Origin: Lingula anatina
Lineage: Eukaryota > Animalia > Brachiopoda
DNA: 64,000 nucleotides
Direction of reading: 5' to 3'
Assembly (NCBI GenBank): GCA_051362555.1
Contig: CM120646.1
Span: 9,424,001-9,488,000, forward strand
Shown here piece by piece: positions 37,606-63,619 of the stretch (positions are counted from its first letter, which is position 1; the number at the start of each line of letters is the position of its first letter). The notes below the pieces were generated by a model, which saw nothing but the letters and a program-made list of their open reading frames with translations, had not been told where the DNA came from and ran no database searches. The translations under genes were made by a program, and so were the position numbers.

Positions 37606-39131
37606 ATATATTCTTTATTGATGATTTGTTCTTTGATTTCAGGAGAGATGAAGGTGTATCTCTGATTATCATCATACTGAGGGCAACTAATTTATGAACT
37701 CATCATCGCCAGCAAGATCTATAACCTCGCAGCCTCAGCGCATGTCAGTGAAACGATAATATTGCTATACTTTGTTGTTTTCTTTAATCCCCTTTTAACC
37801 CTCACCACTATATTTAGTAGCTGTGTAATTATGATTTTGTAAAAGGGCCACTTAGATCGCATGGATTTTTATATATGTTCTAATTGACAAGGGTTGATGT
37901 GAACTTGTAGTGGTTGAGGTGGGATGGGGCTGAGAAAAAGTCTCTATACAGAAAATATTTCATGCATACATTCTGATGCCTGTGCACTGCCTGTTGTGAT
38001 GCTTTATGTGTCTCTATATATTCTGATCACTATGCATGTTTGTTTTGTCGCTGTATGTGTTTATATATAATTTGATATGTACTCTTTATGTAGCATGTCC
38101 TTGTTCCAAAAGATGTAGCATGTCCTTCTAGCTTCTCACAATAGGTTTTGGAGGCTGGTCAGACTTCTGTCTTGCATGGGATAGCATGTGTCCCTTTACA
38201 AATACACTTTTTCTTCGTTTTTTCCAGCTGCCTTTACCGTACAGCAGAGATGAAGGTGTATCTCTGATTATCATCATACTGAAGACAGCTAAACTGGTCA
38301 TCACATCAAGATCTACAACATTGCAGCCTCAGCACAGGTCAATGCAACAATGATATTGATGTACTTTGTTGTTCTCTTCAATCCCCTTTTGACCCTCACC
38401 ACTTTTTATAGTTCCTGGAAAATTATCAATTTGTAAAAAGGTCACTTTGGGGCCATTCCAACAGATATTTTGAGTGCTCTCTCTCCCTGGGAAGTCTGAC
38501 TAAATTGCTATCAACTTAACCAGCTTCTATGTCTGTCACACCTAGTAAAGCTGTTAGGTGGTAATTATCTTTACCCCCTAGCTAATTTGATAGGCGTGAC
38601 TATCAATCTAGCCAGTTAAGTTGATAGCAATCTAATGAGACTCCCTAGGGAGTTGGACTGATCCAGATGGATCGATCTAAGCATGGGAACCCAGTCTTAG
38701 ATCCCACTCAGTTTTATATAGCTTCAAATTGACAAGGGTTAATATGGGTTGGGGTGGGATGACACTGAGAAAAAATTTGTACATAGATTAAATTTCCTGC
38801 ATACATTCTGATGCCTGTGCACTGCCTGTTGTGACACTGTTTGTGTCTGTATATATTCTGATCACTATCTATGTTTGTTTTGTAGCTTAATGTTGATGTT
38901 TGTTTTGATCACTCACACTGTGTAATAATTGTGTTGTAACTACTGTAGGGCAGAAACCACTAAATCAACCAATCACTGACTGTCATAGACAAATGTAGTT
39001 CAGTGAGAAAAAATTAGTGCTTTTTTTCATTATATTTTTAAGTTTTAAGACTAGAAGAAAGACCAACAAACTTTTTTATATTTCACAACCAATTTATTAC
39101 AGAGTAGTATCTTGAAATCATACATTTTCTT

Positions 39132-41050
39132 TTAATTACATGCTCTCTTTGAATAGCTGTGATCAGGAAGTAGAAGTTTTGGCATAGATATGCATCTTCT
39201 GTAGTCATTACTTTTCAATGCTTTAGATCTGTCATATCTTCTGTAACGGCTAAGGATTCTCCTTCTAGCTCTTAACTTAAATGCAACTGTCTTTTTGTGA
39301 TTTACTCTCATTTTCATCTGTTTTTCATCTTTCTCCAGATATTTAAGGACTGAAGAAGTTGGCACAATACCAACAGAGGCCATCTTACTCGAAGTGGATT
39401 GCTTAAGTCCATTATTCCGTAAGTGAACTCCACTGTGAATCCTGCCTGTGAAGTTCCAGAAAAAGCTGACAACTTAATCATTAGTTTTCTGAAATGTTCG
39501 GTTTAAAGACTCCACTTTTGTGTGTTGGTATTTAGTTTTGTTGATTCAGTTGCCCTTGGGCCCAGTCTGTAACTTAGGCACTGTCTTTGGATGTCCATAT
39601 TTTCAGAGTTGCTAAAGTCTATTTTGCCTTTCTGAGGGAAAATAGTTTCTGAGCCACCTTTACATACATAAGAGTTCTTTAAACAATTTTGACAATCAGC
39701 ACTGTAGCAACTAATTGTAGAGTCAGTGACATAACTCAGTGCTCTTTTAATCAATTCTATGTCCCCTTTATTTGTTTTAAAGCAAGCATCAGTTCAGAAT
39801 AGCAGCCCATTGCTATGCACTGAGCAAAGCGTTTTTGCATTTTGTCTCTTGTGTATTTTGTTTCTCCTGGAAACACTTGACAGGTAAATGGTGCTTTTTC
39901 TATTTGTTTTTTCAGAGCTTTGGTGAAGTGGCATGTGTCTCGAAGACTTTCAACACTGTCACATGCAGAGTGGGCTCGGCTATCACCCTCAGTGGCTAAG
40001 GCACCAACTGTGACTGCTCTCCAGAAATTTCCTCAAGGATCTGCTGCATGGCACGTTTCTGCTCTCCAATGCTGTCGTCTTCTGGTGGATTGGCCATGCA
40101 GACTCCACTGTTCTCTGGACAGGAGACATCTTCCCCTCTACTTCTGAGCAGGTGAGCTGTGAGGCATAACTTGTTATCAGTGTAAACACCAATAATGTCT
40201 TTCTGGCTGGTCACATTTTCTGCTACAGTGTACTGAGTGGCTGGCTGGTATGGTGTTTTGTTCCCTCCACTGAACAGACTATTATTATATCTCCCATCTC
40301 CTTTCACTGCTATGGGCTGTCCTCCATACCTTCTCAGATCTTGAATGCGACGTAGATTTTCACGGCGCTGTTGCATGTCAGCTTTGTTTAGCTCCATTGT
40401 AGCTGCACTGACTTTGTTAGCTTGCTTTTGCATGGATGATGGGCTGGTCGGGGTCACATTGCTTGCCATTAGAATCTGTCTCATTGCTGTGTTAGAGATC
40501 ATATTTTGAGACAGGCCTAATTGCAAGCATGCGTTCACCATTGCTGCTCTCAGGCCACGCTGCTTGCTTTGGACTTCATTGTACAGTTTCTGCTTCCTTC
40601 CCTGTCCTGTACTGACATGTGTCACATTTTAGTCCCATTGACCAAGCCACTCCCCACTTGCTCTCTGCCTCTCTGTCCCAAACCATTGAGCCAGTGCACT
40701 CGGCTGTACGCTCTGACAAGACTTTGTTGACCAGATTGACAATTTTTTCTGCTGAAACCAACTTGTATTCATCATCTGGGGGTTGGTGCTGGCTGCTGGA
40801 CAAACTCTCTGACTTGACCCTCCTATGTCCACGTATGTTGGGTGCATCAGGGTTGCTGCTGAGGGTTGTTGGTGGCCCGACAGTGGGTGGAGAGGAGGCT
40901 GCCTGGTACAACTCTTGGCTGAGTCTCATGTATCTTCTCACAATAGGCTCTGGAGGCTGGTCAGACTTCTATCTTGCATTGGATAGCATGTGTCCCTTCA
41001 CAAATACACTTTTTCTTTGTTTTTTTCCAGCTGCCTTTACGGTACGACAT
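39132..41050 (-). pseudogene. Kolobok/Mutator-like DDE transposase, copy 1 (frameshifts, stops)
   Basis: Across frames: WGVAWSMGLKCDTC, VKGDGRYNN, PYQPATQ, ATEGDSRAH..RDTCH, CYSADCQNC..SYVC, NTQK/ESLNR. Confidence 0.8.
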
Positions 41051-42400
41051 GGTGGTAAGAGAGTGACTACTGAGACATGAGTCGGGGACAGGGCATTTAA
41101 TAAGCATCAGCTGCCCATTGTCTCTCCCAGGTGTGCAGGAAAGCAGGGTACATGACAACAAAAGGTGTGAACAGTCCCTGTAAACAGTGGAAGTCCCTGT
41201 AAACAGCAAACTGCACGGCCCCAGTGCAGGGGGGGGGGTACCCAGCCTAGCAGTGAGTATTGTTATGCAGGGAAGGACAGGAAGCCTGATTTCCTGTATC
41301 CTCACGACACACACAAACAAACATAAACAACAGTTGTGACAATTAACCTTGCACTTGACTTTAAGTAATTTTTAAATATTTTAAAATCTTTTTATTAGTA
41401 ATTTTCCACTTCTCACATTTTATTTCTCAGCAAAGTGCACTTAAACTGGTCACAACCAGTTAAGATGCGTATCTCAGATTTTCACACATGTCCATCATCC
41501 GGTGTCCAAATTTGAAAACAATTGAAACAAATTCAGGCACAGAAATTTGCATTTAACTTTTTATCACTCATGAAATTGTGCTTTCTCACCAGGTGCAATG
41601 TTGGCTAAAGTGGCCCATACAGCAACCACATTTTCAACTTGACAGGGCTCAGTCACCAAGAGACCATTCTCAGTCATATTGGGTCGGAGCAGTTGGCAGT
41701 GTATTAAGGTTTTAATTTTTGGTGTCAGAAGGTAAGAACAGCGGGTGGTGGTTTCTGTGAAGGGCAGAAACCACTAAATCAACCAATCACCAACTGTTAT
41801 AGACACATGTAGTTCAGTGGGAGAAAATTAGTGCTTTTTTTTCTTTTTTCCTGACATTTCTTGTGTGTTGCTAGGGTTAATTTTGGTATCAACTAGCAGG
41901 CTAGGGATTAAATTACTGCCAGTTTTTTTTTTTTTTTTCAGGACCAGGCACAGGTACGGTGCAGTGCAGTTGTGAGACCTCTGGCGGAGGGGTTACTGAC
42001 TGTGAGTGGTGCAGTGGTTTGTGTACAAACAGAGGGGTGCACATGTTCAAGTGATGCCGGTAAGAAAGTTGAGTTGATGACAGTTTATTTTTTTGCCATT
42101 GGGAGTTATGTCAGTGTGTCTGCTGGGGATGGGAAATGTTTCACCCAGTGATTTTGTTCATGCAGTTTAGCAGGCATTTCTTAGTATGGTCGTCAATAGG
42201 AAATTATTTGGTGGTTTCTGGGAAAATGACAACTGTTCACTTTTGGCTTAGGGTGCTTTCCCAGAGATTAAGATCTGTCTAAAGATTAAAATTTAGATCG
42301 ACCTAACTCCCTGGGAGTTCACGCTAAATTGCAGTCAGCCAAACGGGCACCATAGTTAATTACCCAATTACAGCTTTTAGTAGGCGGAGCAGACACTTAA

Positions 42401-43340
42401 CTCATTGTCCCCTACTGCCGTCATTTGCCGACAATGTTTTCTTATTTCTATCCCGAGCGTCGTCATTTGACGTCGTAATATTAATAGTACCCATTCCCGA
42501 CTGCCGTCATATGACGGCATCCAATATGGCGGGCCCCTTGCCTAGCGACTTCATATGACGGCATGAGAAAGAAACTTTGATAGGTGAGTTTTAAATAGCT
42601 CGTTTTCTGATTGGTTGTTGCTTTTCTTTTGGCCAATAAAAAGGAGAGTACTATAGAACAAAATGTAAACATTTTAAGGGATGCGGGAAATCTACATATG
42701 GAGGAAATCCGGAGTATTTTTGATGAGAGCTCTGGGTCTGAATTTTCGGGATTTGTTAGTGACAGTGAGTCTGACAGCAATAATTTGAGCTATATTTCTT
42801 TTGAATAACACTTTACAGACATAGTCTGAAAGTGAATTAGGCAGCATTAGTGAAGATTTTAGAAGAAGTCGGTGAAAAAACGATCTGTGGGAGGTGGACA
42901 AGGAGCTTTTCCGTGGTGAACTGCCTGGATTCACACATGAACTGACGGGTCTCAAAGACGAACTAGACTTTTAAAACTGTTCTTTACTGATGAAATACTG
43001 AACAATTTGTCGGAAAATATAAATGCATATGCAACATACAATGACTCTAAGTGGAAAGAAGAACTAAAAGCATGGCTCGGTGTCAGGGTGCATGCAGTAT
43101 TTTTAAGTTGATGCTTATCTTATCACAACTGCATAATATAGATAATAAATGTCATACTTTTTTGTAATCTGATGCTCATCTTTTAATTTTATTTTGTAGA
43201 ATTTTGTCTTTTTTTTTGTACCTGTTGATATAATCTAAACAAGTATTATTATGTATATTTTATATATTTATAAACAGTTGTTGAACTTACATTCATTGTT
43301 CAATTTTTATAGACCAAGTAATTCGGACTTGATCTTCCCT
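42401..43340 (+). mobile_element. Right-truncated copy of the piggyBac derivative at 51057-52240
   Basis: TTAA|CTCATTGTCCCCT left end; joins the nuclease 3' remnant near 43341. Confidence 0.85.
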
Positions 43341-43587
43341 TCAACAATAACAGATTACATTGTCATAATGTGGGCAGGTGCCTCGGACACAGACAGAGGT
43401 CAAATTGTGTACATGATAATTGTTATTATTATTGCTGTTATTATTATTATTAATTTTACATTTACTTAATTTATAGATTTCTCAATTATATTTCTAAGTT
43501 TTAAGACTAGAAGAAAGACCAACAAACTTTTTTATATTTCACAACCAGTTTATTACAGAGTAGTATCTTGAAATCATACATTTTCTT

Positions 43588-45506
43588 TTAATTACATGCT
43601 CTCTTTGAATAGCTGTGATCAGGAAGTAGAAGTTTTGGCATAGATATGCATCTTCTGTAGTCATTACTTTTCAATGCTTTAGATCTGTCATATCTTCTGT
43701 AACGGCTAAGGATTCTCCTTCTAGCTCTTAACTTAAATGCAACTGTCTTTTTGTGATTTACTCTCATTTTCATCTGTTTTTCATCTTTCTCCAGATATTT
43801 AAGGACTGAAGAAGTTGGCACAATACCAACAGAGGCCATCTTACTCGAAGTGGATTGCTTAAGTCCATTATTCCGTAAGTGAACTCCACTGTGAATCCTG
43901 CCTGTGAAGTTCCAGAAAAAGCTGACAACTTAATCATTAGTTTTCTGAAATGTTCGGTTTAAAGACTCCACTTTTGTGTGTTGGTATTTAGTTTTGTTGA
44001 TTCAGTTGCCCTTGGGCCCAGTCTGTAACTTAGGCACTGTCTTTGGATGTCCATATTTTCAGAGTTGCTAAAGTCTATTTTGCCTTTCTGAGGGAAAATA
44101 GTTTCTGAGCCACCTTTACATACATAAGGGTTCTTTAAACAATTTTGACAATCAGCACTGTAGCAACTAATTATAGAGTCAGTGACATAACTCAGTGCTC
44201 TTTTAATCAATTCTATGTCCCCTTTATTTGTTTTAAAGCAAGCATCAGTTCAGAATAGCAGCCCATTGCTATGCACTGAGCAAAGCGTTTTTGCATTTTG
44301 TCTCTTGTGTATTTTGTTTCTCCTGGAAACACTTGACAGGTAAATGGTGCTTTTTCTATTTGTTTTTTCAGAGCTTTGGTGAAGTGGCATGTGTCTCGAA
44401 GACTTTCAACACTGTCACATGCAGAGTGGGCTCGGCTATCACCCTCAGTGGCTAAGGCACCAACTGTGACTGCTCTCCAGAAATTTCCTCAAGGATCTGC
44501 TGCATGGCACGTTTCTGCTCTCCAATGCTGTCGTCTTCTGGTGGATTGGCCATGCAGACTCCACTGTTCTCTGGACAGGAGACATCTTCCCCTCTACTTC
44601 TGAGCAGGTGAGCTGTGAGGCATAACTTGTTATCAGTGTAAACACCAATAATGTCTTTCTGGCTGGTCACATTTTCTGCTACAGTGTACTGAGTGGCTGG
44701 CTGGTATGGTGTTTTGTTCCCTCCACTGAACAGACTATTATTATATCTCCCATCTCCTTTCACTGCTATGGGCTGTCCTCCATACCTTCTCAGATCTTGA
44801 ATGCGACGTAGATTTTCACGGCGCTGTTGCATGTCAGCTTTGTTTAGCTCCATTGTAGCTGCACTGACTTTGTTAGCTTGCTTTTGCATGGATGATGGGC
44901 TGGTCGGGGTCACATTGCTTGCCATTAGAATCTGTCTCATTGCTGTGTTAGAGATCATATTTTGAGACAGGCCTAATTGCAAGCATGCGTTCACCGTTGC
45001 TGCTCTCAGGCCACGCTGCTTGCTTTGGACTTCATTGTACAGTTTCTGCTTCCTTCCCTGTCCTGTACTGACATGTGTCACATTTTAGTCCCATTGACCA
45101 AGCCACTCCCCACTTGCTCTCTGCCTCTCTGTCCCAAACCATTGAGCCAGTGCACTCGGCTGTACGCTCTGACAAGACTTTGTTGACCAGATTGACAATT
45201 TTTTCTGCTGAAACCAACTTGTATTCATCATCTGGGGGTTGGTGCTGGCTGCTGGACAAACTCTCTGACTTGACCCTCCTATGTCCACGTATGTTGGGTG
45301 CATCAGGGTTGCTGCTGAGGGTTGTTGGTGGCCCGACAGTGGGTGGAGAGGAGGCTGCCTGGTACAACTCTTGGCTGAGTCTCATGTATCTTCTCACAAT
45401 AGGCTCTGGAGGCTGGTCAGACTTCTATCTTGCATTGGATAGCATGTGTCCCTTCACAAATACACTTTTTCTTTGTTTTTTTCCAGCTGCCTTTACGGTA
45501 CGACAT
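43588..45506 (-). pseudogene. DDE transposase, copy 2
   Basis: Near-identical to copy 1, offset 4456. Confidence 0.8.
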
Positions 45507-46431
45507 GGTGGTAAGAGAGTGACTACTGAGACATGAGTCGGGGACAGGGCATTTAATAAGCATCAGCTGCCCATTGTCTCTCCCAGGTGTGCAGGAAAGC
45601 AGGGTACATGACAACAAAAGGTGTGAACAGTCCCTGTAAACAGTGGAAGTCCCTGTAAACAGCAAACTGCACGGCCCCAGTGCAGGGGGGGGGGGGGGGT
45701 ACCCAGCCTAGCAGTGAGTATTGTTATGCAGGGAAGGACAGGAAGCCTGATTTCCTGTATCCTCACGACACACACAAATAAACATAAACAACAGTTGTGA
45801 CAATTAACCTTGCACTTGACTTTAAGTAATTTTTAAATATTTTAAAATCTTTTTATTAGTAATTTTCCACTTCTCACATTTTATTTCTCAGCAAAGTGCA
45901 CTTAAACTAGTCACAACCAGTTAAGATGCGTATCTCAGATTTTCACACATGTCCATCATCCGGTGTCCAAATTTGAAAACAATTGAAACAAATTCAGGCA
46001 CAGAAATTTGCATTTAACTTTTTATCACTCATGAAATTGTGCTTTCTCACCAGGTGCAATGTTGGCTAAAGTGGCCCATACAGCAACCACATTTTCAACT
46101 TGACAGGGCTCAGTCACCAAGAGACCGTTCTCAGTCATATTGGGCGGAGCAGTTGGCAGTGTATTAAGGTTTTAATTTTTGGTGTCAGAAGGTAAGAACA
46201 GCGGGTGGTGGTTTCTGTGAAGGGCAGAAACCACTAAATCAACCATCACCAACTGTTATAGACGCGTGTAGTTCAGTGGGAGAAAATTAGTGCTTTTTTT
46301 TCTTTTTTTTTCTGACATTTCTTGTGTGTTCCTAGGGTTAATTTTGGTATCAACTAGCAGACTAGGGAGTAAATTACTGCCAGTTTTTTTTTTTTTTTTT
46401 TTTTTTTTTCAGGACCAGGCACAGGTGCGGT

Positions 46432-46762
46432 CACTAGTGGGCTAGATTTGGTCTTAAAGTGCAATTTAAGTTCACAAGTGATCTTACACGATCTTAATCA
46501 TTACAGCAGTAGTCTTAAAATGGACTGAATCTGCTTTTAAGATCAAAAATGATCTAACATCTACTTAAGTGGTCAAGCAGTTTCCTCCCCTCACAATGGG
46601 GGACACCTCCCCTCACAATAGAGGACACCTCTGCTCACAATAGGAGAATGTGTAAGGGAAGACAGCTGTCAGACTAGAAATGGTCTTACTCAAGTTTTAA
46701 GATCATGTAAGACTATTTGTGTTCTTAAATTGCATTTTAAGACCATATCAAGCCCACTAGTG
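46432..46762. mobile_element. CACTA-like MITE related to 8450-10206
   Basis: GGT|CACTAGTGGGCT...AGCCCACTAGTG|GGT; empty site CAGGTGCGGTGCAG at 50601; three internal ~21 bp CCTC..CTCACAAT repeats. Confidence 0.88.
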
Positions 46763-47060
46763 GGTGCAGTGCAGTCGTGAGACCTCTGGCGGAGGGGTTA
46801 CTGACTGTGAGTGATGCAGTGGTTTGTTTACAAACAGAGGGGTGCACATGTTCAAGTGATGCCGGTAAGAAAGTTCAGTTGATGACAGTATATTTTTTTG
46901 CCATTGGGAGTTATGTCAGTGTGTCTGCTGTCCATGGGGATGGGAAATGTTTCACCCAGTGATTTTGTTCATGCAGTTTAGCAGGCATTTCTTAGTGTGG
47001 TCGTCAATGGGAAATTATTTGGTGGTTTCTGGAAAAAGACAACTGTTCACTTTTGGCTTA

Positions 47061-47286
47061 GGGTGCTTTCCCAGAGATTTAGATCGATCTAAATATTAAA
47101 ATTTAGATCGACCTAACTCCCTGGGGGTTCACGCTAAATTGCAGTCAGCCAAACGGGCACCATAGTTAATTACCCAATTACAGCTTTTAGTAGGCGGAAC
47201 AGATGCTTAAGCCGGCCAAGCTGACAGTAATCTAGTGAGACTCCCCACAGGGATAGATCGATCTAAAAATCTATGGAAATGGGGTG
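47061..47286. mobile_element. Harbinger-like MITE just upstream of the nuclease (also 42251-42400 partial, 50907-52320 split by piggyBac, 56408-56633)
   Basis: TTA TSD; empty site GGCTTAGTTTCT near 60254. Confidence 0.85.
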
Positions 47287-47352
47287 TTAGTTTCTATATT
47301 TAGAGCAGCACAGGCTATAAAAGGGTGGTCTTGCATTATTTCAAACACAGAA

Positions 47353-47700
47353 ATGGCTAATCAGCAATTTCTTGTAGAATTGAGTGATAAATTACATGCA
47401 AGATTGCATAACACACAGGAGAGATACTGTTGGCTGTGGACTGGGGGCACCACTTGTTCCAGTGGGGTTCGTTATGGGATGATGAGGGTTATATTTCCTG
47501 GGGCCAGACACTCCGTTACTGTTGGAGTGCACAGGGTGGCATTTATGCTGAAGGAGAGGATTTTAAACATACCGAGAGGGATAGAAGTATCTCAACTGTG
47601 TGGAGTCAATCTGTGCTATAACCCCAATCATCTCACAGCAGAGCCTCACGGAATCAACAATAACAGATTACATTGTCGTTATGTGGGCAGGTGCCTCTGA
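47353..47700 (+). CDS. His-Me finger (His-Cys box, I-PpoI-like) endonuclease, prematurely stopped
   Basis: CWLWTG..YG..VHRVAF..EVSQLC...LCYNPNHL..EP..IN..R..C; TATAAAAG at 47316. Confidence 0.8.
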   Translation: MANQQFLVELSDKLHARLHNTQERYCWLWTGGTTCSSGVRYGMMRVIFPGARHSVTVGVHRVAFMLKERILNIPRGIEVSQLCGVNLCYNPNHLTAEPHGINNNRLHCRYVGRCL

Positions 47701-47897
47701 CACAGACAGAGGTCAAATTGTGTACATGATAATTGTTATTATTATTGCTGTTATAATTATTATTAATTTTACATTTACTTAATTTATAGATTTCTCAATT
47801 ATATTTCTAAGTTTTAAGACTAGAAGGAAGACCAACAAACTTTTTTATATTCCACAACCAGTTTATTACAGAGTAGTATCTTGAAATACATTTTCTT

Positions 47898-49710
47898 TTA
47901 ATTACATGCTCTCTTTGAATAGCTGTGATCTTCTGTGGTCATTACTTTTCAATGCTTTAGATATGTCATATCTTTTGTAACGGCTAAAGATTCTCCTTCT
48001 AGCTCTTAACTTAAATGCAACTGTCTTTTTGTGATTTACTCTCATTTTCATCTGTTTTTCATCTTTCTCCATTATTCCGTAAGTGAACTGCACTGTGAAT
48101 CCTGCCTGTGAAGTTCCAGAAAAAGCTGACAACTTAATCATTAGTTTTCTGAAATGTTTGGTTTAAAGACTCCACTTTTGTGTGTTGGTATTTAGTTTTG
48201 TTGATTCAGTTGCCCTTGGGCCCAGTCTATAACTTAGGCACTGTCTTTGGATGTGCATATCTTCAGAGTTGCTAAGGTCTAGTTTGCCTTTCTGAGGGAA
48301 AATAGTTTCTGAGCCACCTTTACATACATAAGAGTTCTTTAAACAATTTTGACAATCAGCACTGTAGCAACTAATTATAGAGTCAGTGACATAACTCAGT
48401 GCTCTTTTAATCAATTCTATGTCCCCTTTATTTGTTTTAAAGCAAGCATCAATTCAAAATAGCAGCCCATTGCTATGCACTGAGCAAAGCGTTTTTGCAT
48501 TTTGTCTCTTGTGTATTTTGTTTCTCCTGGAAACACTTGACAGGTAAATGGTGCTTTTTCTATTTGTTTTTTCAGAGCTTTGGTGAAGTGGCATGTGTCT
48601 CGAAGACTTTCAACACTGTCACATGCAGAGTGGGCTTGGCTATCACCCTCAGTGGCTAAGGCACCAACTGTGACTGCTCTCCAGAAATTTCCTCAAGGAT
48701 CTGCTGCATGGCACGTTTCTGCTCTCCAATGCTGTCGTCTTCTGGTGGATTGGCCATGCAGACTCCACTGTTCTCTGGACAGGAGACATCTTCCCCTCTA
48801 CTTCTGAGCAGGTGAGCTGTGTGGCATAACTTGTTACCAGTGTAAACACCAATAATGTCTTTCTGGCTGGTCACATTTTCTGCTACAGTGTACTGAGTGG
48901 CTGGCTGGTATGGTGTTTTGTTCCCTCCACTGAACAGACTATTATTATATCTCCCATCTCCTTTCACTGCTATGGGCTGTCCTCCATACCTTCTCAGATC
49001 TTGAATGCGACGTAGATTTTCACGGCGCTGTTGCATGTCAGCTTTGTTTAGCTCCATTATAGCTGCACTGACTTTGTTAGCTTGCTTTTGCATGGATGAT
49101 GGGCTGGTCGGGGTCACATTGCTTGCCATTAGAATCTGTCTCATTGCTGTGTTAGAGATCATATTTTGAGACAGGCCTAATTGCAAGCCTGCGTTCACCG
49201 TTGCTGCTCTCCGGCCACGCTGCTTGCTTTGGACTTCATTGTACAGTTTCTGCTTCCTTCCCTGTCCTGTACTGACATGTGTCACATTTTAGTCCCATTG
49301 ACCAAGCCACTCCCCACTTGCTCTCTGCCTCTCTGTCCCAAACCATTGAGCCAGTGCACTCAGCTGTACGCTCTGACAAGACTTTGTTGACCAGATTGAC
49401 AATTTTTTCTGCTGAAACCAACTTGTATTCATCATCTGGGGGTTGGTGCTGGCTGCTGGACAAACTCTCTGACTTGACCCTCCTATGTCCACGTATGTTG
49501 GGTGCATCAGGGTTGCTGCTGAGGGTTGTTGGTGGCCCGACAGTGGGTGGAGAGGAGGCTGCCTGGTACAACTCTTGGCTGAGTCTCATGTATCTTCTCA
49601 CAATAGGCTCTGGAGGCTGGTCAGACTTCTATCTTGCATTGGATAGCATGTGTCCCTTCACAAATACACTTTCTCTTTGTTTTTTTCCAGCTGCCTTTAC
49701 GGTACGACAT
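47898..49710 (-). pseudogene. DDE transposase, copy 3 (extra 3' deletions)
   Basis: Same motifs; deletions near 47930 and 48070 shared with copy 5. Confidence 0.8.
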
Positions 49711-52240: not shown

Positions 52241-52386
52241 TTAAGCCGGCCAAGCTGACAGTAATCTAGTGAGACTCCCCACAGGGATAGATCGATCTAA
52301 AAATCTATGGAAACGGGGTGTTAGTTTCTATATTTAGAGCAGCACAGGCTATAAAAGGGTGGTCTTGCATTATTTCAAACACAGAA

Positions 52387-52800
52387 ATGGCTAATCAGCA
52401 ATTTCTTGTAGAATTGAGTGATAAATTACATGCAAGATTGCATAACACACAGGAGAGATACTGTTGGCTGTGGACTGGGGGCACCAGTTGTTCCAGTGGG
52501 GTTCGTTATGGGATGATGAGGGTTACATTTCCTAGGGCCAGACACTCCGTTACTGTTGGAGTGCACAGGGTGGCATTTATGCTGAAGGAGAGGATTTTAA
52601 ACATACCGAGAGGGATAGAAGTATCTCAACTGTGTGGAGTCACTCTGTGCTGTAACCTCGATCATCTCACAGCAGAACCTCACGGAATCAACAATAACAG
52701 ATTACATTGTCATAATGTGGGCAGGTGCCTCGGACACAGACAGAGGTCAAATTGTGTACATGATAATTGTTATTATTATTGCTGTTATTATTATTATTAA
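52387..52800 (+). CDS. His-Me finger endonuclease, longest copy (retains C-terminal CLGH...C)
   Basis: Same motifs, reading through CHNVGRCLGHRQRSNC. Confidence 0.8.
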   Translation: MANQQFLVELSDKLHARLHNTQERYCWLWTGGTSCSSGVRYGMMRVTFPRARHSVTVGVHRVAFMLKERILNIPRGIEVSQLCGVTLCCNLDHLTAEPHGINNNRLHCHNVGRCLGHRQRSNCVHDNCYYYCCYYYY

Positions 52801-52934: not shown

Positions 52935-54845
52935 TTAATTACATGCTCTCTTTGAATAGCTGTGATCAGGAAGTAGAAGTTTTGGCATAGATATGCATCT
53001 TCTGTAGTCATTACTTTTCAATGCTTTAGATCTGTCATATCTTCTGTAACGGCTAAGGATTCTCCTTCTAGCTCTTAACTTAAATGCAACTGTCTTTTTG
53101 TGATTTACTCTCATTTTCATCTGTTTTTCATCTTTCTCCAGATATTTAAGGACTGAAGAAGTTGGCACAATACCAACAGAGGCCATCTTACTCAAAGTGG
53201 ATTGCTTAAGTCCATTATTCCGTAAGTGAACTGCACTGTGAATCCTGCCTGTGAAGTTCCAGAAAAAGCTGACAACTTAATCATTAGTTTTCTGAAATGT
53301 TCGGTTTAAAGACTCCACTTTTGTGTGTTGGTATTTAGTTTTGTTGATTCAGTTGCCCTTGGGCCCAGTCTATAACTTAGGCACTGTCTTTGGATGTGCA
53401 TATCTTCAGAGTTGCTAAGGTCTAGTTTGCCTTTCTGAGGGAAAATAGTTTCTGAGCCACCTTTACATACATAAGAGTTCTTTAAACAATTTTGACAATC
53501 AGCACTGTAGCAACTAATTATAGAGTCAGTGACATAACTCAGTGCTCTTTTAATCAATTCTATGTCCCCTTTATTTGTTTTAAAGCAAGCATCAATTCAA
53601 AATAGCAGCCCATTGCTATGCACTGAGCAAAGCGTTTTTGCATTTTGTCTCTTGTGTATTTTGTTTCTCCTGGAAACACTTGACAGGTAAATGGTGCTTT
53701 TTCTATTTGTTTTTTCAGAGCTTTGGTGAAGTGGCATGTGTCTCGAAGACTTTCAACACTGTCACATGCAGAGTGGGCTCGGCTATCACCCTCAGTGGCT
53801 AAGGCACCAACTGTGACTGCTCTCCAGAAATTTCCTCAAGGATCTGCTGCATGGCACGTTTCTGCTCTCCAATGCTGTCGTCTTCTGGTGGATTGGCCAT
53901 GCAGACTCCACTGTTCTCTGGACAGGAGACATCTTCCCCTCTACTTCTGAGCAGGTGAGCTGTGTGGCATAACTTGTTACCAGTGTAAACACCAATAATG
54001 TCTTTCTGGCTGGTCACATTTTCTGCTACAGTGTACTGAGTGGCTGGCTGGTATGGTGTTTTGTTCCCTCCACTGAACAGACTATTATTATATCTCCCAT
54101 CTCCTTTCACTGCTATGGGCTGTCCTCCATACCTTCTCAGATCTTGAATGCGACGTAGATTTTCATCGGATGTCAGCTTTGTTTAGCTCCATTATAGCTG
54201 CACTGACTTTGTTAGCTTGCTTTTGCATGGATGATGGGCTGGTCAGGGTCACATTGCTTGCCATTAGAATCTGTCTCATTGCTGTGTTAGAGATCATATT
54301 TTGAGACAGGCCTAATTGCAAGCCTGCGTTCACCGTTGCTGCTCTCAGGCCACGCTGCTTGCTTTGGACTTCATTGTACAGTTTCTGCTTCCTTCCCTGT
54401 CCTGTACTGACATGTGTCACATTTTAGTCCCATTGACCAAGCCACTCCCCACTTGCTCTCTGCCTCTCTGTCCCAAACCATTGAGCCAGTGCACTCGGCT
54501 GTACGCTCTGACAAGACTTTGTTGACCAGATTGACAATTTTTTCTGCTGAAACCAACTTGTATTCATCATCTGGGGGTTGGTGCTGGCTGCTGGACAAAC
54601 TCTCTGACTTGACCCTCCTATGTCCATGTATGTTGGGTGCATCAGGGTTGCTGCTGAGGGTTGTTGGTGGCCCGACAGTGGGTGGAGAGGAGGCTGCCTG
54701 GTACAACTCTTGGCTGAGTCTCATGTATCTTCTCACAATAGGCTCTGGAGGCTGGTCAGACTTCTATCTTGCATTGGATAGCATGTGTCCCTTCACAAAT
54801 ACACTTTCTCTTTGTTTTTTTCCAGCTGCCTTTACGGTACGACAT
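52935..54845 (-). pseudogene. DDE transposase, copy 4
   Basis: Same motifs; private lesion near 54165. Confidence 0.8.
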
Positions 54846-55715
54846 GGCGGTAAGAGAGTGACTACTGAGACATGAGTCGGGGACAGGGCATTTAATAAGC
54901 ATCAGCTGCCCATTGTCTCTCCCAGGTGTGCAGGAAAGCAGGGTACATGACAACAAAAGGTGTGAACAGTGATCGGAGGGGAAGTCCCTGTAAACAGCAA
55001 ACTGCACGGCCCCAGTGCAGGGGGGGGGGGGTACCCAGCCTAGCAGTGAGTATTGTTATGCAGGGAAGGACAGGAAGCCTGATTTCCTGTATCCTCACGA
55101 CACACACAAATAAACATAAACAACAGTTGTGACAATTAACCTTGCACTTGACTTTAAGTAATTTTTAAATATTTTAAAATCTTTTTATTAGTAATTTTCC
55201 ACTTCTCACATTTTATTTCTCAGCAAAGTGCACTTAAACTAGTCACAACCAGTTAAGATGCGTATCTCAGATTTTCACACATGTCCATCATCCGGTGTCC
55301 AAATTTGAAAACAATTGAAACAAATTCAGGCACAGAAATTTGCATTTAACTTTTTATCACTCATGAAATTGTGCTTTCTCACCAGGTGCAATGTTGGCTA
55401 AAGTGGCCCATACAGCAACCACATTTTCAACTTGACAGGGCTCAGTCACCAAGAGACCGTTCTCAGTCATATTGGGCGGAGCAGTTGGCAGTGTATTAAG
55501 GTTTTAATTTTTGGTGTCAGAAGGTAAGAACAGCGGGTGGTGGTTTCTGTGAAGGGCAGAAACCACTAAATCAACCATCACCAACTGTTATAGACGCGTG
55601 TAGTTCAGTGGGAGAAAATTAGTGCTTTTTTTTTCTTTTTTTTTTCTGACATTTCTTGTGTGTTCCTAGGGTTAATTTTGGTATCAACTAGCAGACTAGG
55701 GAGTAAATTACTGCC

Positions 55716-55747
<32 letters not shown>

Positions 55748-55769
55748 CAGAACCAGGCACAGGTGCGGT

Positions 55770-56109
55770 CACTAGTGGGCTAGATTTGGTCTTAAAGTGC
55801 AATTTAAGTTCACAAGTGATCTTACACGATCTTAATCATTACAGCAGTAGTCTTAAAATGGACTGAATCTGCTTTTAAGATCAAAAATGATCTAACATCT
55901 ACTTAAGTGGTCAAGCAGTTTCCTCCCCTCACAATGGGGGACACCTCCCCTCACAATAGAGGACACCTCTGCTCACAATAGGAGAATGTGTAAGGGAAGA
56001 CAGCTTAATTGGCTGTCAGACTAGAAATGGTCTTACTCAAGTTTTAAGATCATGTAAGACTATTTGTGTTCTTAAATTGCATTTTAAGACCATATCAAGC
56101 CCACTAGTG
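55770..56109. mobile_element. CACTA-like MITE, duplicate of 46432-46762 at the same unit position
   Basis: Same termini and GGT TSD. Confidence 0.88.
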
Positions 56110-56699
56110 GGTGCAGTGCAGTCGTGAGACCTCTGGCGGAGGGGTTACTGACTGTGAGTGGTGCAGTGGTTTGTTTACAAACAGAGGGGTGCACATGTTC
56201 AAGTGATGCCGGTAAGAAAGTTCAGTTGATGACAGTATATTTTTTTGCCATTGGGAGTTATGTCAGTGTGTCTGCTGTCCATGGGGATGGGAAATGTTTC
56301 ACCCAGTGATTTTGTTCATGCAGTTTAGCAGGCATTTCTTAGTGTGGTCGTCAATGGGAAATTATTTGGTGGTTTCTGGAAAAAGACAACTGTTCACTTT
56401 TGGCTTAGGGTGCTTTCCCAGAGATTTAGATCGATCTAAATATTAAAATTTAGATCGACCTAACTCCCTGGGGGTTCACGCTAAATTGCAGTCAGCCAAA
56501 CGGGCACCATAGTTAATTACCCAATTACAGCTTTTAGTAGGCGGAACAGATGCTTAAGCCGGCCAAGCTGACAGTAATCTAGTGAATCTCCCCACAGGGA
56601 TAGATCGATCTAAAAATCTATGGAAATGGGGTGTTAGTTTCTATATTTAGAGCAGCACAGGCTATAAAAGGGTGGTCTTGCATTATTTCAAACACAGAA

Positions 56700-57047
56700 A
56701 TGGCTAATCAGCAATTTCTTGTAGAATTGAGTGATAAATTACATGCAAGATTGCATAACACACAGGAGAGATACTGTTGGCTGTGGACTGGGGGCACCAC
56801 TTGTTCCAGTGGGGTTCGTTATGGGATGATGAGGGTTATATTTCCTGGGGCCAGACACTCCGTTACTGTTGGAGTGCACAGGGTGGCATTTATGCTGAAG
56901 GAGAGGATTTTAAACATACCGAGAGGGATAGAAGTATCTCAACTGTGTGGAGTCAATCTGTGCTATAACCCCAATCATCTCACAGCAGAGCCTCACGGAA
57001 TCAACAATAACAGATTACATTGTCGTTATGTGGGCAGGTGCCTCTGA
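56700..57047 (+). CDS. His-Me finger endonuclease, same protein sequence as 47353-47700
   Basis: Identical ORF translation, offset 9347. Confidence 0.8.
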   Translation: MANQQFLVELSDKLHARLHNTQERYCWLWTGGTTCSSGVRYGMMRVIFPGARHSVTVGVHRVAFMLKERILNIPRGIEVSQLCGVNLCYNPNHLTAEPHGINNNRLHCRYVGRCL

Positions 57048-57244
57048 CACAGACAGAGGTCAAATTGTGTACATGATAATTGTTATTATTATTGCTGTTA
57101 TAATTATTATTAATTTTACATTTACTTAATTTATAGATTTCTCAATTATATTTCTAAGTTTTAAGACTAGAAGGAAGACCAACAAACTTTTTTATATTTC
57201 ACAACCAGTTTATTACAGAGTAGTATCTTGAAATACATTTTCTT

Positions 57245-59056
57245 TTAATTACATGCTCTCTTTGAATAGCTGTGATCTTCTGTGGTCATTACTTTTCAAT
57301 GCTTTAGATATGTCATATCTTTTGTAACGGCTAAAGATTCTCCTTCTAGCTCTTAACTTAAATGCAACTGTCTTTTTGTGATTTACTCTCATTTTCATCT
57401 GTTTTTCATCTTTCTCCATTATTCCGTAAGTGAACTGCACTGTGAATCCTGCCTGTGAAGTTCCAGAAAAAGCTGACAACTTAATCATTAGTTTTCTGAA
57501 ATGTTCGGTTTAAAGACTCCACTTTTGTCTGTTGGTATTTAGTTTTGTTGATTCAGTTGCCCTTGGGCCCAGTCTATAACTTAGGCACTGTCTTTGGATG
57601 TGCATATCTTCAGAGTTGCTAAGGTCTAGTTTGCCTTTCTGAGGGAAAATAGTTTCTGAGCCACCTTTACATACATAAGAGTTCTTTAAACAATTTTGAC
57701 AATCAGCACTGTAGCAACTAATTATAGAGTCAGTGACATAACTCAGTGCTCTTTTAATCAATTCTATGTCCCCTTTATTTGTTTTAAAGCAAGCATCAAT
57801 TCAGAATAGCAACCCATTGCTATGCACTGAGCAAAGCGTTTTTGCATTTTGTCTCTTGTGTATTTTGTTTCTCCTGGAAACACTTGACAGGTAAATGGTT
57901 CTTTTTCTATTTGTTTTTTCAGAGCTTTGGTGAAGTGGCATGTGTCTCGAAGACTTTCAACACTGTCACATGCAGAGTGGGCTCGGCTATCACCCTCAGT
58001 GGCTAAGGCACCAACTGTGACTGCTCTCCAGAAATTTCCTCAAGGATCTGCTGCATGGCACGTTTCTGCTCTCCAATGCTGTCGTCTTCTGGTGGATTGG
58101 CCATGCAGACTCCACTGTTCTCTGGACAGGAGACATCTTCCCCTCTACTTCTGAGCAGGTGAGCTGTGTGGCATAACTTGTTACCAGTGTAAACACCAAT
58201 AATGTCTTTCTGGCTGGTCACATTTTCTGCTACAGTGTACTGAGTGGCTGGCTGGTATGGTGTTTTGTTCCCTCCACTGAACAGACTATTATTATATCTC
58301 CCATCTCCTTTCACTGCTATGGGCTGTCCTCCATACCTTCTCAGATCTTGAATGCGACGTAGATTTTCACGGCGCTGTTGCATGTCAGCTTTGTTTAGCT
58401 CCATTATAGCTGCACTGACTTTGTTAGCTTGCTTTTGCATGGATGATGGGCTGGTCGGGGTCACATTGCTTGCCATTAGAATCTGTCTCATTGCTGTGTT
58501 AGAGATCATATTTTGAGACAGGCCTAATTGCAAGCCTGCGTTCACCGTTGCTGCTCTCAGGCCACGCTGCTTGCTTTGGACTTCATTGTACAGTTTCTGC
58601 TTCCTTCCCTGTCCTGTACTGACATGTGTCACATTTTAGTCCCATTGACCAAGCCACTCCCCACTTGCTCTCTGCCTCTCTGTCCCAAACCATTGAGCCA
58701 GTGCACTCGGCTGTACGCTCTGACAAGACTTTGTTGACCAGATTGACAATTTTTTCTGCTGAAACCAACTTGTATTCATCATCTGGGGGTTGGTGCTGGA
58801 TGCTGGACAAACTCTCTGACTTGACCCTCCTATGTCCACGTATGTTGGGTGCATCAGGGTTGCTGCTGAGGGTTGTTGGTGGCCCGACAGTGGGTGGAGA
58901 GGAGGCTGCCTGGTACAACTCTTGGCTGAGTCTCATGTATCTTCTCACAATAGGCTCTGGAGGCTGGTCAGACTTCTATCTTGCATTGGATAGCATGTGT
59001 CCCTTCACAAATACACTTTTTCTTTGTTTTTTTCCAGCTGCCTTTACGGTACAAAT
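57245..59056 (-). pseudogene. DDE transposase, copy 5
   Basis: Same motifs; putative start ATG lost. Confidence 0.8.
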
Positions 59057-60312
59057 GGTGGTAAGAGAGTGACTACTGAGACATGAGCCAGGGATAGGGC
59101 ATTTAATAGCATCAGCTGCCCATTGTCTCTCCCAGGTGTGCAGGAAAGCAGGGTACATGACAACAAAAGGTGTGAACAGTGATCGGAAGTGGAAGTCCCT
59201 GTTAACAGCAAACTGCATGGCCCCAGTGCAGGGGGGGGGGGGGTACCCAGCCTAGCAGTGAGTATTATGCAGGGAAGGACAGGAAGCCTGATATCCTGTA
59301 TCCTCACAACACACACAAACAAACATAAACAACAGTTGTGACAATTAACCTTGCACTTGACTTTAAGTAATTTTTAAATATTTTAAAATCTTTTTATTAG
59401 TAATTTTCCACTTCTCACATTTTATTTCTCAGCAAAGTGCACTTAAACTGGTCACAACCAGTTAAGATGCGTATCTCAGATTTTCACACATGTCCATCAT
59501 CCGGTGTCCAAATTTGAAAACAATTGAAACAAATTTTAGGCACAGAAATTTGCATTTAACTTTTTATCACTCATGAAATTGTGCTTTCTCACCAGGTGCA
59601 ATGTTGGCTAAAGTGGCCCATACAGCAACCACATTTTCAACTTGACAGGGCTCAGTCACCAAGAGACCATTCTCAGTCATATTGGGTCGGAGCAGTTGGC
59701 AGTGTATTAAGGTTTTAATTTTTGGTGTCAGAAGGTAAGAACAGTGGGTGGTGGTTTCTGTGAAGGGCAGAAACCACTAAATCAACCAATCACCAACTGT
59801 TATAGACACATGTAGTTCAGTGGGAGAAAATTAGTGCTTTTTTTTCTTTTTTCCTGACATTTCTTGTGTGTTGCTAGGGTTAATTTTGGTATCAACTAGC
59901 AGGCTAGGGATTAAATTACTGCCAGTTTTTTTTTTTTTTTTCAGGACCAGGCACAGGTACGGTGCAGTGCAGTTGTGAGACCTCTGGCGGAGGGGTTACT
60001 GACTGTGAGTGGTGCAGTGGTTTGTGTACAAACAGAGGGGTGCACATGTTCAAGTGATGCCGGTAAGAAAGTTGAGTTGATGACAGTTTATTTTTTTGCC
60101 ATTGGGAGTTATGTCAGTGTGTCTGCTGTCCATGGGGATGGGAAATGTTTCACCCAGTGATTTTGTTCATGCAGTTTAGCAGGCATTTCTTAGTATGGTC
60201 GTCAATAGGAAATTATTTGGTGGTTTCTGGGAAAATGACAACTGTTCACTTTTGGCTTAGTTTCTATATTTAGAGTAGCACAGGCTGGTCTTGCATCATT
60301 TCAAACACAGAA

Positions 60313-60658
60313 ATGGCTAATCAGCAATTTCTTGAAGAATTGAGTCATAAATTGCATGCAAGATTGCATAACACCAGGAGAGATACTGTTGGCTGTGGAC
60401 GGGGGCACCAGTTGTTCCAGTGGGGTCAGTTATGGGATGATGAGGGTTACATTTCCTGGGGCCGGACACTCCGTTACTGTTGGAGTGCACAGGGTGGTAT
60501 TTATGCTGAAGGAGAGGATTTTGAGCATACCGAGAGGGATAGAAGTATCTCAACTGTGTGGAGTCAATCTGTGCTGTAACCCCTATCATCTCACAGCAGA
60601 GCCTCACGGAATCAACAATAACAGATTACATTGTCGTAATGTGGGCAGGTGCCTCTGA
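60313..60658 (+). pseudogene. His-Me finger endonuclease, frameshifted
   Basis: MANQQFL start in one frame, VHRV..SQLC..CCNPYHL in another; TATA-containing segment deleted. Confidence 0.78.
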
Positions 60659-63619
60659 CACAGACAGAGGTCAAATTGTGTACATGATAATTGTTATTAT
60701 TATTATTGCTGTTATTACAGGTAACGGATTATGTCAGAGGACAACGCACCACTAACGCGTTGGGTGATTGAAAAATTCGTCTAATACCTAACTACGCCCC
60801 CTTTTTATGAATGGTTGCCGTGGAAAGAAGACAATGAGACCATAAGTAATTAACGCATCGACACTAAGGTTTAACAATGATGTTTTTCTCAAGCCAGCAC
60901 GTAGCGCGAGCCTTGTCAAAATAAGCTGTTGAAGCCGCAGCGGGACGCCAACACCACTTTATCTTTGCTTGTAATGTAATCCGGTAAACGACGTGTGGCT
61001 CGTTGAATCAGCTATTAAGATCGCTTCAGTTAATTATAACCTTGTGGAACGTGCTTGCATCATATATCTCGCTAGACAACTTTATTGACTTATTTCACTA
61101 TGGATTTGCCGAGCATTACTTAAATTTTACCTGAACAATTTACCGGGCGATCTCGACATTGTGACCCTCACATTGCAGGGCATGACTCGCGTATATGCAC
61201 AGAGTCTGCTTGATATGAATATACTAATGCTGCCGTGGTTTAATATGTTCTTTAAAACTTCATATTACACTGTAAACATCCTTTCAGGCCACCATTCACA
61301 GAAACTTTATTTTCAAAACAATAACTACATTCCGCGTCGAGTCGACTTTGAGCACGCGGCTGATATTTCATTGGCGCCATTTTTTACATGTGCAAGCAAC
61401 AATGTATCGAACGCGCTAACTACATTGCGACAAAGTCGTTATAGCTTTTAGATAGAACTGTTAAAAGTGCTTATGCACCTCAGTAACCTTTTTGTTTACT
61501 TTACACTTTTATATCCAATTGAATTCCAGGTTACAAGTACGGTTACAAAGGTAATTCAGACGATGTAGGCACATGTACATGCCTTATCCGACCACAGTGT
61601 TAATTTATTGGTTTGTTTGCGGTCATTTTTATGTTGCCATGTTGCTCACTATTTTTGTTTTAATGTTTCATCTAAAAGTCAACTTAAATTTTATAACTAT
61701 TAATTGCATGGAATCAACATTTGTTCGGTTAGACTATTAAACTAAATTAGACTTTTAAGTAACAAGTTAAAACTTTAAAACAGTTAAACTTTTAAATTGT
61801 GGAAAAAAGATCAAACTAACATTCGAACTAACATATTCACTGCATGCAACGTTCAGTATTATTTTGTTATCAACATTTGCTTGATGGTAAAAGTTGTTGT
61901 TTTAAATAGGTCCATTTTTCATATAAAGTAATAAAAGGGCCCTTAAATAGCCTAATTTTCATAAGAATTTTCAGTGTTTAAATTGTTTGTTTTTATTTGC
62001 TTCATTTTACAGATTATTGCTTGCTGAAAATTGGATAAAATGTAGGACGTGTTAAGGACAATTAACTTTCTGTAAAAATTATCCAGGTTTGTATTAATGT
62101 AAACAAAACTGAATTAAACCTTCTTTAAAATAATGCAATTGTTCTTCATGTACGCATACACATTGTATATTGAATATGTAGACCCCCCTCCCAAGTAAAA
62201 CGCTTCTAATATATACCCTGTATCCTTTTTTCTCTTCAGACAGACACAATAGAGAATGTGGTCAAACCAAAAATGCTTTTTGGCAAACAGATAACAGATT
62301 CATCAGTATAAATAAAAGGAAACACTTCAGCAATTTTTTCTTCTGTTTTTTTTTTCCTGTCTCAGTGAAAACTTAAATACCCCTAGGATGCTACGTGGGC
62401 CAAGCGTTCCAAAGTAACACGTACCAGTATCAGCATTCTTCAACAAAAAAAGTTAGAAACATTGGTATCTGCAGTGCAGTAAAATTTGAAAGAAAGACAG
62501 AAGACAAAGGCCACTCTCACATCAGGTTTTCTCCCTGTCATTATTTTATATAAGGAGTCTGCTAGTCCTCTGGTTTTCCCTTCTACTTTTTTTTCATCAC
62601 TACATTCTTGTTTCACCTACAGATGTTATTATAATATATCTTAAATAATAATAAAGCAAAAATGAATATTGCATAGTTTTGGATCACTATAACATATTTT
62701 TTCTTATGACGGGGCTGAACCCGATCTCAATCAACAGCCTACAAAGCACATACCAACATCTCAACATTCCGTTTGAGAACGTTCATTTCGAAAAAAGTAT
62801 TTGTACAAATTTCGAGTGTTGGTAGTGAGTGCTTTCAATCTTTAAGTTGATCTTTGAAATAAAATTACATAAACTGTGATAATTTTGAGCCTTCCAGCAG
62901 TATTGTTATATGCGTGCTGATGTCTCTGTCCTTATCGGTATTCATCGGACATACCTCAACAGACAATGGAAGAGGAAGTGACAAAAGAGTAGGAAACTAT
63001 CAATGCTATCATGAGCCAGCACTAATGTCCCTGAAATAAAGACAGGCGATGGTTATCTGTAACTACCTCTGGTTGAAGAGAATGAGGTGAGAAATCGACC
63101 ACTAATTACTGTGGCCATAAACTTCGTTATTAACCTAATTTGCCTTCTCCACCTAGATCTCGAAGCCCAGTCTATCACGATGCAAATATTTACGTCTGTG
63201 ACCACATTCTGTACACCGCAACGTATACCAAATAATATACGTACATTGCGAACAAAATTAAAACAAATATATATAAAAAGCAACTGTCACACGCATGAGA
63301 TGGACAGTGAATCGTTCAGCTATTCGGGGGATAAAACCATCTGACTCAACACACTTCATGACAAAGAACGTTCACACAAAAGAAAATGATAAGATAATAA
63401 AAACAATTACGGAACGCCACCCTACAATACATATCAACCCACTTTTTTAATTATTTACCAGGGGTGAAGGATGCGAACATTATTTGTATCTATATTTATA
63501 ACAAATGTTTCACTGCCACCCCTTTACCCAGTACACACGACAGCTACCGCTCATATTTGTGTAGTGAAGATGGATGAGATAGCATATATGAACTGATACA
63601 GAGTTTTTTTTTCTGTTTT

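What the first reader, a model, noticed from the sequence alone, without database searches (positions are those of the whole stretch)
38947..60716. 22 kb tandem array of a transposase + homing-endonuclease-like element (KolobokP-like)
Seen: five repeats (2814, 4460, 4190, 5142, 4211 bp) plus a partial sixth. Each complete unit has a plus-strand His-Cys-box nuclease gene converging on a minus-strand DDE transposase (GDGRY / TEGDS / DxxH / ESLNR). Established: a DDE transposase paired with an I-PpoI-like His-Me finger nuclease and long direct repeats characterises KolobokP. Inference: this is a multimerised KolobokP-like family, possibly uncatalogued, that has become a macrosatellite next to a satellite block. 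The system class is probably known; the long array is the unusual part.
Basis: partly seen in the sequence, partly recalled or inferred. Interest (0 to 1): 0.8.

Follow-up and report, generated by a model that had tools for sequence, protein, structure and literature searches.

The report
Dead KolobokP transposon tandem array
This is a 22-kb head-to-tail chain of five broken copies of a known kind of animal DNA transposon (KolobokP) that likely kept multiplying by unequal recombination after its transposase and nuclease had been crippled; such chains are already described, so it is mostly ordinary.

Summary
The array is real and matches KolobokP. The five spacings quoted are exactly the distances between starts of a 462-468-bp long terminal direct repeat (LTDR) with its own inverted repeats. 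Each internal region carries a DDE transposase and, where not deleted, a convergent I-PpoI-like nuclease. The array is not the unusual part: the KolobokP paper already reports (LTDR-INT)n multimers, including four-unit ones. New here: all 5 transposases share four frameshifts, two stops and a catalytic D-to-E change; all 4 nucleases carry Gln for the catalytic His (His in 145 of 150 relatives); all 5 internal LTDRs lack their last three bases. The units are recombination mosaics. So the array likely grew by unequal exchange after its founder was crippled. Copies lacking these lesions exist elsewhere in the species and are transcribed, so help in trans is not excluded. One related subfamily is about 10-100 times deeper in two runs of one study, unexplained. 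Copy number, target-site duplication, tree placement and host taxon remain untested. New family member, known kind; low interest.

The parts
38948..39028 (-). Remnant (81 bp) of the outermost LTDR, terminus intact; joined by a deletion to the region between nuclease and transposase
   Evidence: 71-74 of 80-81 bases identical to the five internal LTDRs; interrupts a ~430-bp repeat monomer
39132..41050 (-). Transposase pseudogene A
   Evidence: tblastn with P0001 in five pieces, shared frameshifts and stops
41762..42220 (-). LTDR 1 (462 bp with the three lost terminal bases)
   Evidence: 15-bp inverted repeat core, 1 mismatch
42252..43340 (.). Left part of fold-back MITE (42252-42400) with truncated piggyBac-like insertion (42401-43340); a deletion removes the rest and the nuclease 5' part
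   Evidence: 99.3% to 51056-52012 over 957 bp; TTAA site
43341..43450 (+). 3' remnant of nuclease gene B
   Evidence: translation
43588..45506 (-). Transposase pseudogene B
46222..47031 (-). LTDR 2 carrying a CACTA-like MITE (46432-46762, 3-bp target duplication)
47062..47286 (.). 225-bp fold-back MITE between two TTAG
   Evidence: empty TTAG site at 60257-60260; fold z -3.7; relatives in the ~430-bp repeat
47353..47700 (+). His-Cys box nuclease gene C: catalytic His replaced by Gln, stop before the last two zinc ligands
47898..49710 (-). Transposase pseudogene C with extra 3-, 32- and 74-bp deletions
50412..50876 (-). LTDR 3 (468 bp with the lost bases)
50908..52320 (.). Fold-back MITE holding a whole 1184-bp piggyBac-like element (51057-52240, TTAA on both sides, 13-bp inverted repeats)
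   Evidence: DDE_Tnp_1_7 only E 0.0086, below cut-off
52387..52800 (+). Nuclease gene D: open frame with both zinc sites, catalytic His replaced by Gln
52935..54845 (-). Transposase pseudogene D (extra 8-bp deletion)
55554..56378 (-). LTDR 4 with CACTA-like MITE (55770-56109)
   Evidence: other genomic copies run on here with CCC and then unrelated flanks
56409..56633 (.). Fold-back MITE
   Evidence: 99.1% to 47059-47290
56700..57047 (+). Nuclease gene E, identical to C over 360 of 360 bases
57245..59057 (-). Transposase pseudogene E (same deletions as C; start codon lost)
59765..60229 (-). LTDR 5, followed by the MITE-free TTAG site
60313..60720 (+). Nuclease gene F, frameshifted, about 4% diverged; array cut off here without a closing LTDR
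   Evidence: 342-344 of 358 identical to C, D, E; flank

Best explanation
The block is a KolobokP multimer of the form (LTDR-INT)n whose five transposases, four nucleases and five internal LTDRs all carry the same inactivating changes, and which likely grew and is still reshuffled by host unequal crossover and gene conversion rather than by its own enzymes. Shown: architecture, shared lesions, mosaic units, lesion-free relatives elsewhere that are transcribed. Inferred order: (1) an element of about 4.2 kb inserted into a degenerate ~430-bp repeat; (2) it decayed and lost three bases of one LTDR end, which would block excision by a transposase acting in trans; (3) misaligned LTDRs or whole units recombined, adding units; (4) MITEs and deletions arose in single units and were copied on, giving a two-unit higher-order repeat of about 9.35 kb; (5) both outer ends were later cut by deletions.
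For: LTDR 462-468 bp with inverted repeats; array starts exactly at an LTDR terminus; about 20 contigs in each of runs X1 and X2 leave the stretch at the other terminus with CCC and unrelated flanks. Four frameshifts, stops at residues 27 and 521 and D348E in 5 of 5 transposases; D in 15 of 15 homologues. Gln in 4 of 4 nucleases, His in 145 of 150 homologues, Gln in none of the four commonest letters listed; the position is I-PpoI H98, whose H98Q mutant keeps only residual activity (PMC11325842 passages). Differences between units: 1 synonymous, 15 non-synonymous codons in the two frames examined. 44 informative sites fall into five different splits in blocks; 393 of 946 site pairs are incompatible with one tree; neighbouring sites share a split 29 times against 9.5 expected, 0 of 20000 permutations as high. 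Unit-specific marks differ between samples: the 32-bp deletion is seen in X1 and X2, not listed in X6. RNA reads over the transposase lack the lesions (22 of 24, 19 of 19, 37 of 49 reads at three frameshifts; 114 of 114 at the first stop). Precedent for arrays with damaged termini: Bari1, hobo (PMC5932611 sections 18, 19).
Against: Shared lesions could have been spread by later homogenisation, so death before growth is inferred, not dated. His-bearing nuclease copies exist in X6, X8, X10 and in 2 RNA reads, so cleavage in trans is possible. H98Q is not fully dead in I-PpoI. No closing LTDR, so no target-site duplication proves a single insertion. The inverted repeat alone is only moderately rare (16 of 500 shuffles). 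B-D (0.94%) and C-E (1.47%) divergences are in the range of allelic difference, so part of the array could be two haplotypes written in a row. No long reads and no whole genome were available.
Confidence: 0.7

Rival explanations
1. Same element, but growth was driven in trans: an intact nuclease from related copies cuts the LTDRs of this dead array and induces unequal repair, as Kojima and Bao proposed.
For: His-bearing copies in X6 (407 of 777 depth, 5 contigs), X8 (332 of 332, 3 contigs), X10 (318 of 367, 2 contigs) and low-level nuclease RNA; model in PMC9587614; one change of split lies near the LTDR.
Against: Changes of split also lie inside the transposase, far from LTDRs; no cut site is known; the model awaits experimental confirmation (PMC13565253 passage); ordinary unequal exchange suffices for other transposon arrays.
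Confidence: 0.17
2. The element is real but the array is partly an assembly artefact: two haplotypes of a three-unit array joined in tandem (B-C and D-E are alleles).
For: 43341-50907 matches 52688-60260 at 98.2%; B/D share the CACTA insertion, C/E share deletions and an identical nuclease.
Against: A-B (0.72%) are closer than B-D (0.94%) or C-E (1.47%); the middle of D sides with C and E, not B. In X2 the D-only deletion has depth about 27, the C/E deletion 48 and array-type contigs 96-111, against low-copy contigs at 10-28: rough, and the tool warns that depth is no copy number.
Confidence: 0.1
3. The array was made in one step by rolling-circle copying or repeated integration of an LTDR-INT circle of a dead, non-autonomous copy.
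For: All internal junctions share the same damaged LTDR end; circles are proposed for KolobokP and rolling-circle replication for Bari1.
Against: Terminal pieces are 4% and 9-11% diverged from the inner units, and insertions are shared by subsets of units, which points to stepwise growth.
Confidence: 0.03

Closest known systems
KolobokP (Kojima and Bao 2022, PMC9587614)
   Same: LTDR-INT-LTDR plan; LTDR in the 450-480-bp class with short inverted repeats, GG..CC ends; transposase with a convergent His-Cys box nuclease; monomer about 4.2 kb; multimers sharing LTDRs.
   Different: Every unit here is crippled in both genes and in one LTDR end; nested MITEs; two-unit higher-order repeat; no LTDR-less INT-INT junction among 5 junctions; outer ends truncated.
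I-PpoI His-Cys box homing endonuclease (PDB 1a73; 2o6m carries Gln at the catalytic His)
   Same: Profile of the nuclease family hits I-PpoI at E 1e-7 to 5e-6 over the active-site motif.
   Different: Encoded by a DNA transposon, not a group I intron; the array's copies carry the same His-to-Gln change as the engineered variant.
Bari1 and hobo tandem arrays of Drosophila (PMC5932611)
   Same: DNA-transposon units in tandem with identical damaged termini, expanded by unequal exchange.
   Different: Those start from double insertions of simple elements; here the long direct repeats themselves supply the first substrate.

Membership tests
KolobokP | DDD/E transposase with C/DxxH signature | tested here: met
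   First D, DxxH and E present in 5 of 5 copies; second D changed to E in 5 of 5 (D in 15 of 15 homologues); PF20700 E 2.6e-23
KolobokP | CCHC finger after the first D and a second finger between DxxH and E | tested here: met
   Cysteines present in the array frames; the His of CCHC (11 of 15 homologues) reads Asn in the array
KolobokP | [quoted passage not shown] | tested here: met
   PF05551 above cut-off; profile hits only I-PpoI in the PDB; S, H110, E114, N119 equivalents kept, H98 equivalent is Gln
KolobokP | LTDR of about 450-480 or 660 bp with its own short inverted repeats and RR..YY ends | tested here: met
   462-468 bp, 15-bp core with 1 mismatch; 18 bp and GG..CC when the terminus seen in other copies is used; the array's own LTDRs lack the last three bases
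KolobokP | Monomer of about 4-5.5 kb | tested here: met
   about 4195 bp without nested insertions; Table S1
KolobokP | Multimers sharing LTDRs; dispersed LTDR ends | tested here: met
   Five shared LTDRs in the window; about 20 contigs with unrelated flanks per run in X1 and X2. Solo LTDRs were not shown one by one
KolobokP | 3-5-bp target-site duplication around the whole multimer | tested here: inconclusive
   Left terminus intact, right end truncated at about 60720
KolobokP | Transposase groups inside the KolobokP clade | not tested
   Named reference proteins were seen only as gapped text in the supplement; the 15 homologues found carry no family names
MuDR/Mutator (name of the Pfam model) | One element bounded by terminal inverted repeats, without long direct repeats or a His-Cys box nuclease (recalled) | tested here: not met
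   Units are bounded by shared direct repeats and carry the nuclease

The most novel reading that the evidence does not exclude
The species hosts a live KolobokP family caught in the act: a MITE-free subfamily without the array's frameshifts is amplified to roughly 60-100 near-identical copies (giant multimer or LTDR-INT circles) in the samples of one study, while this nuclease-dead array serves as a built-in control or trans target, making the untested 'nuclease-induced multimerisation' model directly testable.
Probability: 0.15. Interest if true: 0.55.

Novelty: new member of a known kind. Interest (0 to 1): 0.25.

Why it matters
The role proposed for the KolobokP nuclease, to force unequal crossover and so multiply the element, has no experimental support. 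An array of at least six internal regions in which every nuclease lacks its catalytic histidine suggests that multimers can grow without a working nuclease in cis, and a species with transcribed relatives and strong sample-to-sample differences offers material to test the model. Otherwise it is one more example of a transposon turning into a macrosatellite.

Tried and rejected
Whole-genome search for monomers: no genome held. I first took the 225-bp fold-back element for an unusually short LTDR; rejected when the 462-468-bp repeat with better inverted repeats and the dispersed ends were found. I considered the ~430-bp repeat as a non-autonomous KolobokP array with excised LTDRs; not supported, as it shares no sequence with the LTDR and the fold-back element behaves as an insertion at TTAG. 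Word-index search with the nuclease: 0 of 1 candidate scored; single-sequence PDB search: 0 hits; both were overcome. Protein atlas: no answer, so no taxa of homologues. Earlier findings: nothing in 3 look-ups. No RNA holder listed in the run index. Motif search in the paper's supplements: no match to this family, weak because of line breaks and gaps. Literature: 'KolobokP' in 2 papers; array searches gave no report on dead KolobokP arrays among the listings seen; subscription papers and Repbase are not covered. No structure or complex prediction was run: profile matches were clear. Columns with gaps, or within 3 of a gap, were dropped before the mosaic count. Lay tables show only the best-supported rows (40 of 927; 40 of 48).
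Full report
Observation. Self-comparison of the window gives a block of long direct repeats from 39029 to 60717 at 96.8-98.8% identity, with a 7.6-kb match between 43341-50907 and 52688-60260. Pfam finds a Mutator-like transposase on the minus strand and a His-Me finger zinc-binding loop on the plus strand. The window is animal-like: no host gene was recognised among frames of 80-90 codons or more, only a Gypsy element, two DIRS-like remnants, a LINE fragment and MITEs. No genome is held; ten public DNA runs that hold part of the stretch all carry one coded species label.

Anatomy. In the spacer between the two gene starts the best inverted repeat is a 15-bp pair with 1 mismatch, 462-468 bp apart. 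Alone it is only moderately rare (16 of 500 shuffles), but the array begins exactly at one arm (38948), and in runs X1 and X2 about 20 contigs each leave the stretch at the other arm with CCC followed by unrelated flanks. This is the LTDR, with GG..CC ends like the published ones and in the published 450-480-bp class (Table S1). Without nested insertions a monomer measures about 4195 bp. The array reads: LTDR remnant, INT A (nuclease deleted), LTDR, INT B (nuclease mostly deleted), LTDR, INT C, LTDR, INT D, LTDR, INT E, LTDR, nuclease F, truncation. Length differences come from a 225-bp fold-back MITE at a TTAG site (present before B, C, D, E, absent before F), a 1184-bp TTAA-flanked piggyBac-like element inside that MITE before B and D, a CACTA-like MITE with a 3-bp duplication in LTDRs 2 and 4, and 3-, 32- and 74-bp deletions in C and E. 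The superfamily labels piggyBac-like and CACTA-like rest on termini and duplications as recalled; the Pfam support for the first is below cut-off.

All copies are crippled in the same way. Fifteen full-length homologues of 592-736 residues were found. Against the closest (66% over the query), all 5 transposases break at the same four places, have stops at residues 27 and 521, and have Glu for the second catalytic Asp, which is invariant in 15 of 15 homologues; a fifth shared frameshift just after the start codon is likely. The nuclease family (best 150 of 2358 hits) has His at the position where 4 of 4 array copies have Gln (145 of 150 His). A profile of 34 sequences hits only I-PpoI in the PDB and aligns this position with H98; one entry, 2o6m, carries the same Gln. 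H98A and H98Q I-PpoI keep only residual activity (PMC11325842, passages). Copies C, E and F also stop before the last two zinc ligands. All 5 internal LTDRs lack the terminal CCC. Among units, 15 of 16 variable codons in the two frames examined change the residue, as expected without selection.

The units recombine. Pairwise divergence is 0.72-2.03%. The 44 informative sites support five different splits (AB 15, AE 10, CE 9, BD 7, CD 3), arranged in blocks; 393 of 946 pairs are incompatible; neighbouring sites agree 29 times against 9.5 by chance (0 of 20000 permutations). The outer pieces are more diverged: nuclease F about 4%, the first LTDR remnant 9-11%, the pattern expected when exchange homogenises the middle of an array (established knowledge). 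Marks differ between samples: the 32-bp deletion is in X1 and X2 and not listed for X6; the Gln allele has depth 370 in X6 and about 48 in X10. Contig depth is no copy number and contigs show presence, not absence, so this is only suggestive.

Relatives elsewhere in the species. Contigs of X1, X2 and X6 show copies without three of the shared frameshifts and without the first stop; the fourth frameshift is not among the rows shown. In RNA run X12 (about 6 in 100 of the run read), reads over the transposase lie almost all in one direction, which in most stranded libraries is the sense strand, and lack the lesions in 22 of 24, 19 of 19, 37 of 49 and 114 of 114 reads; only 67 of 1347 laid reads are 99% or more alike to unit D. 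So the RNA comes mainly from other copies. The His codon is present in contigs of X6, X8 and X10 and in 2 reads of X15. One MITE-free subfamily has contig depth 4400-7300 in X6 and X8 (both study P3), against at most about 330 for such contigs in X1 and X2 and about 56-160 in X10, while array-type contigs in X6 and X8 stand at 370-700. Its contigs do not cover the His codon in the lay, so its nuclease status is unknown, and the library type is not on record. This is unexplained.

Comparison with what is known. I read parts 1-4 of 6 of the main text of PMC9587614, all of Table S1, part 1 of 7 of supplement 2 and search passages of supplements 3 and 4. It describes the same plan, solo LTDRs and (LTDR-INT)n-LTDR multimers; Figure S2 shows a four-unit insertion and the text an LTDR-(INT)4-LTDR. 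Longer arrays may be listed in the parts of supplement 2 not read. A 2026 review says the nuclease model awaits confirmation (PMC13565253, one passage). Arrays of DNA transposons with damaged termini that expand by unequal exchange are known in Drosophila (PMC5932611, abstract and sections 18-19). All testable defining features of KolobokP are met; target-site duplication is inconclusive and tree placement was not tested.

Verdict. A new family member in a known multimeric form. The most likely mechanism is passive growth of a dead, excision-resistant unit by unequal crossover and conversion (0.7); trans-acting nuclease (0.17) and partial haplotype duplication in the assembly (0.1) remain open. 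The useful points are the nuclease-dead founder and the hyper-deep related subfamily in two samples. Interest 0.25.

Noticed in passing
runs X6 and X8 laid on window 52325-56400 and 52330-52760: A MITE-free related subfamily without the array's frameshifts has contig depth 4400-7300, far above the same type in X1, X2, X10: hyper-amplification, circles or library enrichment.
   Followed up: partly
window 2635-38948: Degenerate ~430-bp repeat, 24 hits in five clusters, split by Gypsy, LINE, CACTA-like and MITE insertions; looks like an old tandem array riddled with elements.
   Followed up: partly
window 2827, 3521, 3954, 4407, 7129, 26899, 33001, 36011, 37646 and others: Each monomer of that repeat holds a pyrimidine tract, AG, 8-11 bases and then GT(A/G): a possible repeated micro-exon of a host gene; may be common descent only.
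   Followed up: no
window 3025, 4560, 7400, 26238, 33200, 33355-33572, 38447: Relatives of the fold-back MITE sit at one TTAG site of the ~430-bp monomer; a second one is inserted directly behind another at 33355.
   Followed up: partly
window 28049-32834: Gypsy-type LTR retrotransposon with two ~206-bp LTRs, a 5-bp duplication and long gag, RT-RNase H and integrase frames; looks young.
   Followed up: partly
window 11232-13294 and 19077-20573: Two DIRS-like remnants (RT, RNase H, tyrosine recombinase).
   Followed up: no
window 8450-10206: 1757-bp CACTA-like element with ~408-bp inverted repeats and a 3-bp duplication, ends related to the MITE in LTDRs 2 and 4.
   Followed up: partly
window 38129-38242: 115-bp piece of the transposase 5' end (92% identical) inside a repeat monomer, 700 bp left of the array.
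   Followed up: no
window 36400-37610: 5'-truncated LINE with RT fragment and ATT tail.
   Followed up: no
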